This document shows, one piece after another, positions 5,125 to 28,995 of a stretch of DNA of 48,686 nt. Source of the DNA: Minisyncoccota bacterium (GTDB lineage Bacteria; Patescibacteriota; Minisyncoccia; Phycocordibacterales; Phycocordibacteraceae); assembly GCA_022842585.1 (NCBI GenBank), contig JALHPI010000003.1, positions 1 through 48,686 on the forward strand, written 5' to 3'. Both the position numbers and the translations under genes were made by a program. The notes under the pieces are model-generated. The model was given only the letters and a program-made list of their open reading frames with translations. It was not told the origin of the DNA and searched no databases. How positions within the stretch are numbered: position 1 is the first letter of the stretch; each line of letters starts with the position of its first letter.

Positions 5125-5149
5125 TAAGTCGTGCTGGTACAGGCAGTCG

Positions 5150-5275
5150 CCCAGCCCCACTTTTACAGCGCGAAAATTTATTTATCGCCATAGTTGCGAT
5201 AGAAAAATTTCGAACGGGAAAAATTGTCTTGCAGACAATTTTTCCAAAGGATCGTTCTGTAAAAGTGGGGCTGGG
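5150..5275. mobile_element. Non-coding hairpin (MITE-like) element, copy 1, at the P3 position of rnpB
   Basis: Perfect 19-bp IR CCCAGCCCCACTTTTACAG / CTGTAAAAGTGGGGCTGGG with two internal stems. Confidence 0.8.
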
Positions 5276-5293
5276 AGGAAAGTCCGAACACAG

Positions 5294-5420
5294 CCCAGCC
5301 CCACTTTTACGGTGCGAAATTCTACCCATCAACAACTTGATAGTAGAAGAAATTTCGAACGTGAAATGTAGTCTGAAAGACTACATTTCCGAATAATCGT
5401 TCTGTAAAAGTGGGGCTGGG
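5294..5420. mobile_element. Non-coding hairpin (MITE-like) element, copy 2, between P5 and P7 of rnpB
   Basis: 17-bp IR CCCAGCCCCACTTTTAC / GTAAAAGTGGGGCTGGG; junction motifs shared with copy 1. Confidence 0.8.
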
Positions 5421-5590
5421 AGCAGGGTAGCGGGTAACTCCCGTCCGCCGTAAGGCGCGAGGTGCGAACAGAGACGTTCCTAAGCGAAAGCGCGGGAACA
5501 CCCTCCGAATCCGCAAGGAATACGGGGGTGAGCCTGAAGGGTAACCTACAGGCTGAAACGGCAAAATCCTTACCTCTGTGCAAGGCCGTG

Positions 5591-5897
5591 TCCAGCCCCA
5601 GTTTTAGGTACAATGAGCCTATGTTCTCAGTTTATGTAATCCAGCACGACTCTACTAAAGAGATTTATATTGGATTTACAAGCAATCTGCGAAGACGGCT
5701 CATTGAACACCAATCCCGTGGCAATACGTCGACGAAGCGGAAAGTGGGCAAATGGCATCTGATATACGCCGAAGCGTATCGCGCAGAAGCTGATGCTAGG
5801 CTCCGTGAACGTCGACTGAAAAGCCACGGGAGCGGGAAACAAGGGTTAATCAAGCGTATAAAGGCTAGTTTGCTTGATACCTAAAACTGGGGCTGGA
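5591..5897 (+). mobile_element. IR-bounded GIY-YIG cassette in the P15/P16 region of rnpB
   Basis: Perfect 20-bp IR TCCAGCCCCAGTTTTAGGTA / TACCTAAAACTGGGGCTGGA enclosing one ORF. Confidence 0.85.
5621..5884 (+). CDS. Small GIY-YIG nuclease (87 aa)
   Basis: MFSVYVIQ...IYIGFTSNLRRRLIEH...LIYAEAY...ARLRERRLK: the VY/YIG, R and E catalytic pattern. Confidence 0.9.
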   Translation: MFSVYVIQHDSTKEIYIGFTSNLRRRLIEHQSRGNTSTKRKVGKWHLIYAEAYRAEADARLRERRLKSHGSGKQGLIKRIKASLLDT

Positions 5898-5990
5898 AGT
5901 GCCGCTTGAGGCCGTCGGCAACGGCGGTCCTAGATAAATGACTGTCCAACGACAGAATTCGGCTTATCGGACCAGCACGTCAAATGCGAT

Positions 5991-12179: not shown

Positions 12180-12333
12180 GTATTCGAAAATGAACGTAAC
12201 AACGCCTTTCAGGGCGCGCGGAGCTGCATAGTCGTCTCGTTCCAAAAATAGCTAAAGCGCTTAGCTAGTCGCTATTTTTGTCCTCGACTCCATGCGCTCC
12301 GGCTGCTTGCAGGAAGCGTTCATTTTTGAATAC
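12180..12333 (+). repeat. ~155-nt multibranched structured repeat, copy 1 (homologue at 41274-41431)
   Basis: Closing stem GTATTCGAAAATGAACG/CGTTCATTTTTGAATAC; motifs CGCCTTTCAGGGCGC, TAAAGCGCTTAGCTAGTC, CGGCTGCTTGCAGGAAG. Confidence 0.75.
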
Positions 12334-12388
12334 GCCTCGCTCGGAGGTGTCGGAAAAGATGCGTGTTGAGGTTGGTATACTGCGTAGC

Positions 12389-12742
12389 ATGATGCGCAGG
12401 AAAAAAACTACGATGCGCGAGTACTTGATAGCAGGCGGACTCATACTCCTTCTTTTGTGGCTCCTGTTCCTTTTCTGGGGGATTTTCCGCAAGGAAGAAG
12501 TGGCGCGGCGCGCGGCCGAAGACAGTAAGCGCCAACTTGCAGCTCTCACCGCGCGCGAGGAGACACTCCGAAAGAACATTGCGGACTTGAATACGGAACG
12601 CGGTCAGGAAGCCTCTATCCGCGAGACGTACGGAGTTGCACGAGAGGGCGAGGAGGTTATTATCGTGGTACCGGCGGAAGGGGGCGAAGTCGTCCCGAAG
12701 GGGAATTGGTGGGATGGTCTCTTTAGCTGGTTGAAGTTTTAG
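12389..12742 (+). CDS. Septum formation initiator (FtsB/DivIC-like)
   Basis: One TM helix, coiled coil, E..IRETYGVAREGEEVIIV motif. Confidence 0.75.
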   Translation: MMRRKKTTMREYLIAGGLILLLLWLLFLFWGIFRKEEVARRAAEDSKRQLAALTAREETLRKNIADLNTERGQEASIRETYGVAREGEEVIIVVPAEGGEVVPKGNWWDGLFSWLKF

Positions 12743-12746
12743 AATT

Positions 12747-12817
12747 GCGAAATTGGTTTAGTGGCAGAACACGACCTTCCCAAGGTTGGGGCACGGGTTC
12801 GATTCCCGTATTTCGCA
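12747..12817 (+). tRNA. tRNA-Gly(CCC)
   Basis: GCGAAAT/ATTTCGC acceptor, CGACC-TTCCCAA-GGTTG anticodon arm, GGTTCGATTCCC T arm. Confidence 0.95.
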
Positions 12818-12820
12818 CAT

Positions 12821-12903
12821 AGTTGTGGTAGAACGATGAAGTGACGCCCCGCGTCACTTCATTCCCTCGGTTCAGGTACGAGTTCGATTCTCGTATTCCG
12901 CAC
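12821..12903 (+). pseudogene. Truncated tRNA-Gly-like relic containing a 12-bp hairpin
   Basis: GTGGTAGAAC D-arm remnant and intact ACGAG-TTCGATT-CTCGT-ATTCCGCA 3' end, but no 5' acceptor strand. Confidence 0.6.
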
Positions 12904-13152
12904 ATGAAGCACGCGTATGCGTGCGTAATGGCTGGAATAAGAGAATCGAAGCTGAGCACGGGTACCATTTTCAGCAGAAAATGGTCGTGCGAAGGGTGGT
13001 CAGGCGGAGTATCGAGTGACGACGAGATGCGAGCGCTTGACCGATGCGCGCTGAGATTTTGTTAGCATTCCGATGCTCTAGAAAATCCAAGTGTGGTCAT
13101 TCCTGTGAGCCACTGCCTGCGGTCTTCGCAGGACACTCCCCGTATTTCGCAC
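12904..13152 (+). repeat. tRNA 3'-associated structured element, copy 1 (homologue at 28726-28923, minus strand)
   Basis: Inverted copy of the tRNA 3' end (12934-12950), shared ~105-nt core, direct copy CCCGTATTTCGCAC ending at 13152. Confidence 0.8.
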
Positions 13153-13219
13153 CAATAGAGGGGCTGATACCTGTGGATAAGTACAGATGATATACTGACG
13201 GGACCTAAACGAAATAACC

Positions 13220-13517: not shown

Positions 13518-13548
13518 GTGCTATCCTCCGCCTGGTACGTGCAATTTT

Positions 13549-13631
13549 CCGCTATATGGGTTATTTGCACCCATATAGCGGCTCGTTCGGAGAATATAAG
13601 AATAAAGGGTATTCTTATATTTCCTCACTTC
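13549..13631 (+). repeat. tRNA 5'-leader element, copy 1
   Basis: Hairpin duplicating the tRNA 5' end (CCGCTATA), then CGTTCGGAGAATAT-hairpin-TTCCTCACTT. Confidence 0.7.
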
Positions 13632-22922: not shown

Positions 22923-23201
22923 ATGTCTCAAATAACGCTTCTTGCTGCATTCGCTATTTTCGGAGGCATACTCCTTCTCGGGTATATCTTTAGTCGATGG
23001 ATGACGTGGCGTGTTGCTAAGAATAAGCCAGCATTTACAGGTATAGGAGGTGCAATGGAGACGGGTGTACAAAAATATACTGCGGAAGGAAAAGACGGTC
23101 CAAGAATCATAACCGCTGTCATTGCCTATCTTGTTTTCCTGGCTTTCCTGGCTTACGTAGCCTTCAACAACTTGCCTAGTTTCCTACAATGGCTTGGCTA
23201 G
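22923..23201 (+). CDS. Small two-TM hypothetical protein
   Basis: Two hydrophobic segments; TATACT 6 nt before the ATG; terminator downstream. Confidence 0.65.
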   Translation: MSQITLLAAFAIFGGILLLGYIFSRWMTWRVAKNKPAFTGIGGAMETGVQKYTAEGKDGPRIITAVIAYLVFLAFLAYVAFNNLPSFLQWLG

Positions 23202-23234
23202 AAAAGTTCCATAATCGTCCCAGATAGCCAGCAT

Positions 23235-23270
23235 AAAAGAAAAGCCCCGCGAGAGCGGGGCTTTTCTTTC
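23235..23270. terminator. Bidirectional terminator
   Basis: AAAGAAAAGCCCCGC-gaga-GCGGGGCTTTTCTTT between convergent genes. Confidence 0.85.
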
Positions 23271-23294
23271 GCCGAAGGCAGGTTTTGTATCTAC

Positions 23295-23394
23295 GGGGTC
23301 CCCATTCCGATGGGGATGTGAACGGCGAATGATGTATGTGAAGGCGCTTCGCCTGAGCTGGAATCATTCGGTAAGTGAACAAGGGTAAGCGAGC
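23295..23394 (-). repeat. Stop-codon-associated repeat, copy A (after ahcY)
   Basis: GGGGTCCCCATTCCGATGGGGA...GGTAAGCGAGC abutting the stop codon. Confidence 0.75.
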
Positions 23395-24651
23395 TTACGT
23401 TCCATGCTCCCAATCCGCCAAATACTTCTTCTGCTCCTCCGTCAATTCATCAATCGTAATACCCATCGAAGCAAGCTTCACGCTCGCAACACTATTCTCG
23501 ATTTCATCAGTCACGTCGTAGACAGCAGGAGCAAGCTTTTCTTTTTGGAGGGCCATCCACTCGCAGGCGAGTGCCTGAGTGGCAAAGCTCATATCCATCA
23601 CGGATGCTGGGTGGCCTTCGGCTGCGGCGAGGTTTACGAGGCGGCCGTCTGCAAGGAGGAATACGCGCTTGCCGTTCACCATGTATTCGTCGACGAACGG
23701 ACGGATATCCTTACGCACCGCAGACGCTTCTTTCTGAAGTCCTGCCACATCTATTTCCACGTCGAAGTGACCGGTATTGCAGACGATAGCACCGTCTTTC
23801 ATAGCTTTCATGTGCTCGACGCGGATGACATGGATGTCGCCGGTCGCCGTGCAGAAGACGTCGCCCACCGGTGCGGCTTCTGCCATCGTCATGACGCGGA
23901 AGCCGTCCATGGTCGCTTCAATGGCCTTCACTGGGTCTATCTCGGTCACGATGACCTGTGCGCCCATACCACGTGCGCGAAGTGCGAGTCCGCGACCGCA
24001 CCAGCCGTAGCCTGCGGCTACGAAGACTTTCCCTGCAAGGAGGATATCGGTTGCGCGTACAATACCGTCCAACGTTGATTGGCCTGTGCCGTAGCGGTTG
24101 TCGAAAAGATTTTTTGTCTTCGCATCGTTCACGGCGACGATAGGGAACTTCAAGGCGCCCGCCTTACTCATAGCACGGAGGCGAATGACGCCGGTCGTGG
24201 TTTCTTCCGTTCCGCCAATCACGGAGTCGATGAGTTGCGGATAGTCCTTATGAATAGTGGAGACGAGGTCCGCCCCGTCGTCCATGGTGAGATGCGGGTT
24301 TGCTCCGATGACTGCGTTTAGGTGCGCGAAGAAGGTATCGCGGTCCTCGCCCTTCTTTGCGAATACCGGAATGCCTTCGTCTTTTACGAGAGACGCGGCG
24401 ACGTCGTCTTGGGTGGAGAGGGGATTGGACGCGCAGAGTACGACGTTTGCGCCACCAGCCTTCAAGGTACGCATCAGTGTTCCTGTTTCAGCGGTGACGT
24501 GAAGGCACGCACCGATAGTCTTTCCTTTAAACGGAAGTTCTTTCGCAAAGCGTTCACGCACCGCCTGTAAGACCGGCATATCGTTGTCTGCCCACGCAAG
24601 GCGCTTCTTTCCAAGTTCTGCGAGTGATTCGTCAGCGATGTCGTACTTCAT
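23395..24651 (-). CDS. ahcY: Adenosylhomocysteinase (SAH hydrolase)
   Basis: CLHVT, SNPLSTQD, DDGADL, EETTTG, FDNRYGTGQS, GYGWCGRG, EGHPASVMDMSF. Confidence 0.97.
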   Translation of the reverse strand: MKYDIADESLAELGKKRLAWADNDMPVLQAVRERFAKELPFKGKTIGACLHVTAETGTLMRTLKAGGANVVLCASNPLSTQDDVAASLVKDEGIPVFAKKGEDRDTFFAHLNAVIGANPHLTMDDGADLVSTIHKDYPQLIDSVIGGTEETTTGVIRLRAMSKAGALKFPIVAVNDAKTKNLFDNRYGTGQSTLDGIVRATDILLAGKVFVAAGYGWCGRGLALRARGMGAQVIVTEIDPVKAIEATMDGFRVMTMAEAAPVGDVFCTATGDIHVIRVEHMKAMKDGAIVCNTGHFDVEIDVAGLQKEASAVRKDIRPFVDEYMVNGKRVFLLADGRLVNLAAAEGHPASVMDMSFATQALACEWMALQKEKLAPAVYDVTDEIENSVASVKLASMGITIDELTEEQKKYLADWEHGT

Positions 24652-28724: not shown

Positions 28725-28725
28725 T

Positions 28726-28923
28726 CCCACGGAGAAGCGTACTGATAAGAATCAGTCGCGCATCGGCGAAGCGCTCGCATCTCGTCGTCACTCGATGCTC
28801 CGCCTCGCCACCTCGCACGACCATTGTCTGCTGACAATGGTTCCCGTGCTCGCTTCGATTCCCCGTAGGGTCTACAAACGGCAACAGCCGGAAATGCATA
28901 CGCATTTCCGGCTGACCGATTTG
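28726..28923 (-). repeat. tRNA 3'-associated structured element, copy 2 (after tRNA-Glu)
   Basis: Inverted tRNA 3' copy at 28854-28872, core nearly identical to ~12945-13050, direct repeat CCCACGGAGAA at 28726-28736 and 28928-28938. Confidence 0.8.
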
Positions 28924-28995
28924 TGACCCCACGGAGAATCGAACTCCGATTTCCTGCGTGAAAGGCGGGCGTCCTAACCGTTAGACGATGGGGCC
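28924..28995 (-). tRNA. tRNA-Glu(TTC)
   Basis: Minus strand: GGCCCCA/TGGGGTC acceptor, loop CTTTCAC, GAGTTCGATTCTC T arm. Confidence 0.93.

What the first reader, a model, noticed from the sequence alone, without database searches (positions are those of the whole stretch)
12883..13152. tRNA 3'-end-targeting element that carries an inverted and a direct copy of its host tRNA end (second copy at 28726-28923)
Seen: at both the Gly locus and tRNA-Glu the layout is tRNA 3' end, hairpin, inverted copy of that 3' end (...GAATCGAA), a near-identical core (GAGCACGGG-ACCATT-TCAGCAGA-AATGGTCGTGCGA...GGCGGAG-ATCGAGTGACGACGAGATGCGAGCGCTT...CCGATGCGCG), then a direct copy of the tRNA 3' end. The flanking copies match the local tRNA (Gly vs Glu), while the core is shared. 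No integrase is present. Inference: a non-autonomous element whose insertion templates repeats from the target, and whose transcript could pair with the pre-tRNA T arm and acceptor strand.
Basis: partly seen in the sequence, partly recalled or inferred. Interest (0 to 1): 0.75.

Follow-up and report, generated by a model that had tools for sequence, protein, structure and literature searches.

The report
Hairpin elements mirroring their neighbouring tRNA
Behind two tRNA genes of a tiny-genome bacterium sit copies of a small folded non-coding element whose arms mirror the end of whichever tRNA gene it follows; it behaves like a miniature mobile element that I could not find described, and the enzyme that moves it is unknown.

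Summary
The layout is real, with corrections. At Gly the hairpin follows a degenerate tRNA-Gly duplicate (12820-12903), not the gene. Both window arms are exceptions to exact tracking: the Glu(TTC) arm matches Glu(CTC) 19/19 and its own tRNA 17/19.

This is one member of a family: at least 8 of 35 tRNA genes in this genome, and 86 core-model hits in 40 of 137 genus genomes. Of 85 hits examined, 67 lie within 500 nt of a tRNA/tmRNA end. The core fold is conserved (23 of 30 pairs change on both sides). The inverted arm complements tRNA positions 54-70 and follows genome-specific variants (55 of 61 diagnostic bases). Copies are patchy, tandem, or displaced by serine-recombinase islands.

Best reading (0.55): a non-autonomous element that inserts at the T-loop as a folded single strand, with the arm re-copied from the target. 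I found no mobilising enzyme, no ORF-bearing version, no RNA evidence and no description in the papers searched. This scan has already noted the family on other DNA (85 notes, at least 78 genomes, including this genome's Arg pair).

The parts
12747..12818 (+). tRNA-Gly(CCC) gene
   Evidence: ARAGORN; Rfam
12820..12903 (+). degenerate tRNA-Gly duplicate (D loop to 3' end; hairpin 12836-12862 in the anticodon arm; compensated T-stem variant). A separate module, seen without the core at Gly(CCC) of G133, G219, G232
12904..12933 (+). Gly spacer hairpin (homologous hairpin at tRNA-Gly(TCC) of G043, G148, G204)
12934..12950 (+). inverted arm, complement of positions 54-70 of the duplicate
12951..13044 (+). 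conserved two-hairpin core, ending in tRNA positions 56-58
   Evidence: model R1 103 bits; covariation
13045..13136 (+). small hairpin modules inserted between positions 58 and 59 of the direct copy
13137..13154 (+). distal direct copy of tRNA-Gly(CCC) positions 59-76 (different Gly variant in a sister strain)
28923..28995 (-). tRNA-Glu(TTC) gene
28873..28922 (-). Glu spacer hairpin (homologous to the C13 copy and to Glu elements of G194, G110, G120, G061)
28854..28872 (-). inverted arm, complement of positions 54-72; 19/19 to Glu(CTC), 17/19 to Glu(TTC)
28763..28853 (-). conserved core, ending in positions 56-58
   Evidence: model R1 97 bits
28737..28762 (-). hairpin module between positions 58 and 59 of the direct copy
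28725..28736 (-). distal direct copy of tRNA-Glu(TTC) from position 59, abutting the stop codon of a DedA/VTT-domain gene

Best explanation
A small non-coding, non-autonomous element of small-genome, Patescibacteria-like bacteria (lineage inferred). The unit is spacer hairpin, inverted arm, two-hairpin core, and tRNA positions 56 to about 73. On the tRNA-sense strand it folds so that the inverted arm and a direct copy rebuild a duplex of the tRNA T-loop-to-acceptor segment, capped by hairpins. SHOWN: anatomy, fixed junctions (arm ends at T54, direct copy starts at C56, optional hairpins at 65/66 and 58/59), conserved strand-biased fold, tracking, patchiness, tandem units, closest cores within a genome. 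INFERRED: the folded single strand is the substrate for insertion or exchange at the T-loop by a protein acting in trans. The housekeeping Xer-type recombinase is the only tyrosine recombinase here. Insertion leaves the tRNA intact and a duplicate of its 3' end downstream. The inverted arm is then re-copied from the adjacent tRNA end by fold-back template switching, as in quasipalindrome mutagenesis; the reverse copying would damage the tRNA and be purged. The window's Glu and Gly arms would be recent or chimeric copies not yet corrected.
For:: 96.8% of cells paired, 23 of 30 pairs with double changes, 0 of 500 shuffles; G-U pairs on the sense strand; a circular unit folds better on the sense strand with both RNA and DNA parameters; own tRNA is the best of 172 sequences for 43 of 46 arms, 55 of 61 diagnostic bases follow the own gene, and similarity stops at T54 (4 of 46 match position 53, 0 of 46 position 52). 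(core-ascertained): 48 of 59 arms have 2 or fewer mismatches in 17 nt; all 18 TTCAA/TGCAA-type T-loops are mirrored in the arm and 16 of 18 at the core end; at wobble positions the arm complements the 3' strand 23 of 25 times and copies the 5' strand 0 times. G017 cores at Glu and Ser are 97.7% identical with spacers 83% and arms 2 of 11; G193 93%; G000 Gly/Glu 88%. Occupancy 7 of 52 Glu(TTC) and 5 of 19 Glu(CTC) loci. Tandem units. Copies persist kilobases from their tRNA beyond serine-recombinase islands. Template switching perfects imperfect inverted repeats (PMC7202029, abstract and opening text).
Against: No enzyme found. No ORF-bearing long version among 127 elements. No reverse transcriptase or Y1 transposase in G000. 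No association with Y1 transposases (25 of 40 carriers vs 51 of 97 others) or serine recombinases (29 of 40 vs 65 of 97, counted by hand). No empty-site or circle joint among the rows shown (35 joints not shown). A simple circle crossover predicts tRNA end = inverted arm, but the window's Glu has tRNA = distal copy, different from the arm. Spacer loops are mostly GNRA (25 of 87) with no excess of DNA-type GNA triloops (7 of 87), which fits RNA at least as well. Spacer and core diverge at different rates, so core conversion without retargeting explains the closest pairs.
Confidence: 0.55

Rival explanations
1. A host-selected RNA device. The pre-tRNA trailer first sequesters the tRNA 3' strand and then refolds arm-to-distal-copy, tuning tRNA maturation or releasing a stable structured RNA. 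The arms track because pairing is selected.
For: Always on the tRNA-sense strand in the hits printed. G-U-rich covariation and GNRA loops. The misfold is favoured by 12-15 kcal/mol. No terminator-like site between tRNA and arm. E. coli RttR is said to affect tyrT processing (bioRxiv 10.1101/2024.07.17.603846, passage).
Against: Patchy occupancy (7 of 52 Glu(TTC) loci), tandem copies, and intact copies kilobases from their tRNA. Arms are strict Watson-Crick complements where RNA would tolerate G-U. Distal copies are not enriched for CCA (4 of 17 vs 56 of 244). No RNA run held the stretch beyond a 0.05 share.
Confidence: 0.2
2. No dedicated mobility. Old tRNA-specific scaffolds are inherited, lost by recombination between the two direct copies, regained by transformation, and homogenised by core gene conversion and template switching.
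For: The window Glu element is a chimera: spacer and arm 81% to C13, core 71% to C13 and 88% to Gly. The same spacer carries different cores at G043 vs G148 Gly(TCC) and at G110's two Glu genes. In a sister strain the distal copy changes together with the downstream allele. No enzyme found.
Against: One spacer type occurs at Glu, Ser, Gly and Ala, and cores of 90 bits or more occur at Glu, Gly, Ser, His, Ala, Leu, Tyr, Val and Asp, so retargeting did happen. Fixed junctions and identical tandem units suggest a defined reaction.
Confidence: 0.17
3. An RNA-guided or reverse-transcribed element. The transcript's antisense arm guides an unknown protein to the tRNA gene, and the direct copy is a target-site duplication.
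For: In the window's Glu element tRNA = distal copy, different from the arm, as a target-site duplication with a carried guide predicts. The arm is often split into 7 and 12 nt by a hairpin (24 of 46), resembling a guide scaffold.
Against: No reverse transcriptase in G000 and no linked ORF. A carried guide does not explain mirroring of rare host T-loop variants.
Confidence: 0.08

Closest known systems
Genomic islands at tRNA/tmRNA genes (Islander, PMC4383910, passages) and their integrase-less derivatives
   Same: Intact tRNA gene, inserted DNA, displaced 3' fragment in direct orientation; a T-stem-region site class exists; tandem arrays
   Different: No integrase, about 150-250 nt long, an internal inverted copy of the target, a conserved folded core, and many tRNA types used by one core
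Integron attC sites (PMC4792948, passages); IMEX/CTX folded attP (recalled; named in earlier scan notes)
   Same: Imperfect palindrome plausibly used as a folded single strand, strand bias, variable inner structure, arrays
   Different: The arms copy the host target instead of a fixed crossover triplet; no integron integrase found; no cassette ORF; recombination not shown
REP/REPIN with RAYT (passages in bioRxiv 10.1101/2024.07.17.603846; PMC3116915 listing only) and NTS/SRM with Ssn nucleases (PMC11893778, passages)
   Same: Short non-coding hairpin repeats thought to be handled as single strands by a protein in trans
   Different: Those have a fixed sequence and are dispersed; here location is restricted to tRNA/tmRNA ends and the arms vary with the target. 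No Y1 transposase in G000 and no association across the genus
E. coli RttR / tRNA-linked repeats at tyrT (one passage in the bioRxiv paper; anatomy recalled)
   Same: Repeat behind a tRNA gene that contains its 3' end; RNA role proposed
   Different: No Rfam match; recalled as direct repeats at one operon, without an inverted arm or a core shared across tRNA types
Quasipalindrome template-switch mutagenesis (PMC7202029, abstract and opening text)
   Same: Would make the arm an exact complement of the adjacent tRNA end
   Different: A mutational process, not an element; it does not explain the core, the junctions or the spread

Membership tests
tRNA-targeted genomic island (Islander type) | Intact tRNA plus displaced 3' fragment in direct orientation | tested here: met
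tRNA-targeted genomic island (Islander type) | On-board tyrosine integrase | tested here: not met
   No ORF in the elements; the only PF00589 gene of G000 is a stand-alone Xer-like gene on C7
tRNA-targeted genomic island (Islander type) | Excision to a circle and restored empty site | tested here: inconclusive
   Empty orthologous loci are common; no such joint among rows shown (contigs only)
Integron attC site | Imperfect palindrome folding on one strand | tested here: met
Integron attC site | Conserved AAC crossover point independent of target | tested here: not met
   Arm ends vary with the tRNA T-loop
Integron attC site | Integron integrase recombines it | not testable with these tools
   G000 has one tyrosine recombinase, Xer-like by Pfam and by my reading; the IntI-specific insertion was not tested with a profile
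MITE | Terminal inverted repeats of fixed sequence with a short target duplication | tested here: not met
   The inverted copy is internal and target-derived; the ends are a spacer hairpin and a tRNA copy
REP/REPIN-RAYT | Dispersed fixed-sequence palindromes | tested here: not met
   67 of 85 hits within 500 nt of tRNA/tmRNA ends
REP/REPIN-RAYT | Associated Y1 (HUH) transposase | tested here: not met
   None in G000, which is 95.6% complete; 25 of 40 carriers vs 51 of 97 others; the six element-richest genomes except G017 have none
NTS/SRM-Ssn | Fixed hairpin motif flanking a GIY-YIG gene | tested here: not met
   The GIY-YIG genes viewed (C5, and window 5621-5884) are not flanked by this element; the third, a 355-aa frame on C6, was not viewed, but no core hit lies on C6
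Known Rfam RNA family | Match at gathering score | tested here: not met
   Only tRNAs in the window
Retro-element (SINE-like) | Reverse transcriptase available and RNA intermediate | tested here: inconclusive
   No PF00078 in G000; no RNA data

The most novel reading that the evidence does not exclude
A class of mobile element that reprograms its own target-recognition arm. When a copy lands behind a new tRNA gene, positions 54-70 of that gene are written into the element in antisense, so one folded core can colonise any tRNA or tmRNA end using a host enzyme, with no gene of its own.
Probability: 0.3. Interest if true: 0.85.

Novelty: new variant of a known kind. Interest (0 to 1): 0.6.

Why it matters
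tRNA 3' ends are the main landing sites for genomic islands. In these streamlined genomes at least 8 of 35 carry a folded element that, in silico, can unfold the essential tRNA it follows. If it moves, it points to an unknown host- or phage-encoded reaction that retargets among all tRNA types, which known integrases do only over long evolution (my knowledge). If it is a host RNA device, it is a new layer of tRNA maturation control. Either way the fixed junctions (T54, C56, 58/59, 65/66) make it directly testable. It also explains stray tRNA fragments that confuse island mapping and assembly in these genomes.

Tried and rejected
Core pattern scans: 0 in viral contigs. The 10 hits in genome contigs were all in unrelated organisms, mostly Actinobacteria, and were taken as chance from their titles without reading; that used the only scan. 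A low-threshold ARAGORN run gave noise. Model R1 found 0 of 150 other genomes of the phylum, but only 27 candidates per genome were scored. A strict layout pattern found 7 of 300 other class genomes, control 0, 6 of them behind a matching tRNA. Loop census for DNA vs RNA: inconclusive, and the control set was contaminated by elements my parser missed. tRNA-mimic idea (arm as a copy of the 5' strand, selected CCA): rejected. The stop at m1A58 of a reverse transcriptase as the origin of the direct copy: rejected, because the copy starts at 56. Serine recombinase as the mobiliser: it inserts at the discriminator end and displaces the element, and shows no association. Y1 transposase and GIY-YIG partners: no support. 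Long ORF-enclosing versions: 6 of 127 had a far copy, 2 with an ORF between, both outside an already closed element. No protein folding or complex job was run, as there was no candidate.

Full report
Setting. The window is contig C3 of a 657-kb, 95.6% complete genome. I infer a Patescibacteria-type organism from genome size and earlier scan notes; no call named the taxon. Rfam finds only tRNAs in the window.

Observation. Both loci show tRNA end, hairpin, inverted copy, core, direct copy. Cores are 89% identical over 113 nt. Both regions fold far better than shuffles (z -9.5 and -7.6). Match scores of 11 or more occurred in 1 of 300 random windows. Two details differ from the finding. At Gly, the end that precedes the hairpin is a degenerate duplicate (12820-12903) with a compensated T-stem variant. 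The inverted arm follows that duplicate, while the distal copy follows the gene. At Glu(TTC), the arm equals the Glu(CTC) end (19/19) and differs from its own gene at 62 and 67, while the distal copy follows its own gene.

A family in this genome. A third copy of the core lies on C13 with Glu(CTC) arms and no tRNA. Glu(CTC) on C26 is followed by a serine recombinase whose frame overlaps the tRNA end. In G225, murF, Glu(CTC) and yqeY are adjacent; in G000, murF is on C26 and yqeY on C13 in matching orientation. So C13 is most likely the Glu(CTC) element pushed away by an island. A strict parser finds the layout with other cores behind 8 of 35 tRNA genes; by eye about 12.

Relatives. Model R1, built from 10 cores, gave 86 hits in 40 of 137 genus genomes. 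I examined 85; one had no locus. Of these, 60 lie within 150 nt of a tRNA or tmRNA end, 7 within 500 nt, 8 are cut by contig ends and 10 have no gene called nearby. Nine of those 10 still carry tRNA- or tmRNA-type arms (two tmRNA-like ends by my reading) and one is a partial core. In G017 and G161 the element lies 6-7 kb beyond a serine-recombinase island, with arms matching the parent tRNA; in G017 that includes a rare T-loop variant. Occupancy is patchy: 7 of 52 Glu(TTC), 5 of 19 Glu(CTC) and 0 of 28 Gly(CCC) loci. Those loci were top-ranked by similarity to the window, and the parser missed at least two Gly carriers. Tandem units occur (G017 Pro, G063 Leu, metagenome L073). In the metagenome scan, 18 of 61 loci show the layout by eye, 13 hit the distal copy of another core type, and the rest are chance or other hits. 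A strict pattern found 7 of 300 other class genomes, control 0. R1 found 0 of 150 other phylum genomes, with only 27 candidates scored in each.

Anatomy. On 30 cores, 96.8% of cells pair and 23 of 30 pairs change on both sides; 0 of 500 shuffles reach this and slid controls give 27-39%. That alignment was fitted to the model and the sequences are kin. G-U pairs mark the tRNA-sense strand. Among 46 arms found by similarity to the own tRNA (a biased set), 27 are perfect over 54-70 and the own tRNA is best of 172 sequences in 43. The single loser is the window's Glu. At 61 diagnostic positions, 55 follow the own gene, 4 the consensus and 2 neither. In the core-ascertained set, 48 of 59 arms have at most 2 mismatches in 17 nt and 4 have 6 or more. 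All 18 tRNAs with A57 have it mirrored in the arm, and 16 at the core end. The arm stops at T54 and the direct copy starts at C56. Optional hairpins sit at 65/66 of the arm (24 of 46) and at 58/59 of the direct copy. At wobble positions the arm complements the 3' strand 23 of 25 times and never copies the 5' strand, so it is an antisense copy and not a tRNA-like duplicate.

Movement. The closest cores lie within a genome at different tRNAs: G017 Glu/Ser 97.7% with arms 2 of 11 alike, G193 93%, this window 88%. Against a clean reading, spacers diverge faster than cores (83% in G017). The window's Glu element is a chimera: spacer and arm 81% to C13, core 71% to C13 and 88% to Gly. One spacer also carries different cores in G043 and G148. 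Cores therefore also swap between scaffolds. Contigs from four runs of one study show a sister strain with 3 differences over 12300-13060, but five changes in the distal Gly copy on a more divergent downstream contig. The distal copy thus probably travels with the downstream flank, as a displaced original end would. No empty-site or circle joint was among the rows shown.

Enzyme. G000 has one tyrosine recombinase (Xer-like, stand-alone), three GIY-YIG genes, and no Y1 transposase or reverse transcriptase. Y1 transposases (25 of 40 carriers vs 51 of 97 others) and serine recombinases (29 of 40 vs 65 of 97) show no association (hand counts; R1 sees one core subtype only). No ORF-enclosing version was found among 127 elements within 1.6 kb.

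RNA or DNA. A read-through Glu transcript would favour arm-tRNA pairing over the cloverleaf by about 12 kcal/mol, or 15 before the core is made. No terminator-like site was found. Loops are mostly GNRA and do not single out DNA. No expression data exist here. The question stays open.

Mechanism. I favour a non-autonomous element used as a folded single strand at the T-loop, with the arm re-copied from the neighbour by fold-back template switching (0.55). The folded-substrate idea came from earlier scan notes (attC, IMEX). Rivals are a host RNA device (0.2), passive inheritance with conversion (0.17) and an RNA-guided or retro element (0.08).

Literature. Searches listed no description of such an element; most subscription papers are not in that library. 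I saw passages of PMC4383910, PMC4792948, PMC11893778 and bioRxiv 10.1101/2024.07.17.603846, the abstract and opening text of PMC7202029, the abstract and outline of PMC11270868, and only the listing of PMC3116915. No supplements were read; repeat catalogues there could bear on novelty. The scan itself has noted this family 85 times in at least 78 genomes; those notes are not independent support.

Verdict. Real, ordered, family-wide and apparently undescribed. It resembles tRNA-targeted insertions and folded recombination sites but fails their defining tests.

Noticed in passing
window 5131-5978: Region noted earlier as RNase P RNA, holding inverted-repeat inserts and an 87-aa GIY-YIG ORF (5621-5884, PF01541); a different repeat family from this element. 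Rfam gave no hit there at gathering score.
   Followed up: partly
window 12820-12903; also G000 C5 Gln(CTG), C6 Gln(TTG), C1 Ile(GAT); L109, L111, L115: A second kind of tRNA trailer: near-full tRNA duplicates lacking the 5' acceptor strand, at Gly with a hairpin in the anticodon arm.
   Followed up: partly
L378 (G000 C26:7010-8725), L369, L371: Large serine recombinases whose frames run into tRNA 3' ends (Glu, Ser, Ala); PF07508 is in 94 of 137 genus genomes. A passage of PMC4383910 (2014) says serine integrases were not known to target tRNA genes.
   Followed up: partly
L370 (G087 C12:158800-164500): Two 96%-identical Asp-type elements bracket four genes and a tRNA-Arg; the second copy has no Asp tRNA.
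   Followed up: no
L374 (G193 C10): A single 230-aa gene with no recombinase lies between tRNA-Ser(CGA) and its element.
   Followed up: no
L345, L321, L367: The element also follows tmRNA ends (one called by ARAGORN, two by my reading).
   Followed up: partly
window 22985-23395 and 13520-13629: The sister-strain contigs skip or replace these stretches, so they are probably strain-variable.
   Followed up: no
G000 C32:237-436: Convergent tRNA-Leu(TAA) and tRNA-Lys(CTT) share one perfect hairpin, a plain bidirectional terminator-like case and not this element.
   Followed up: no
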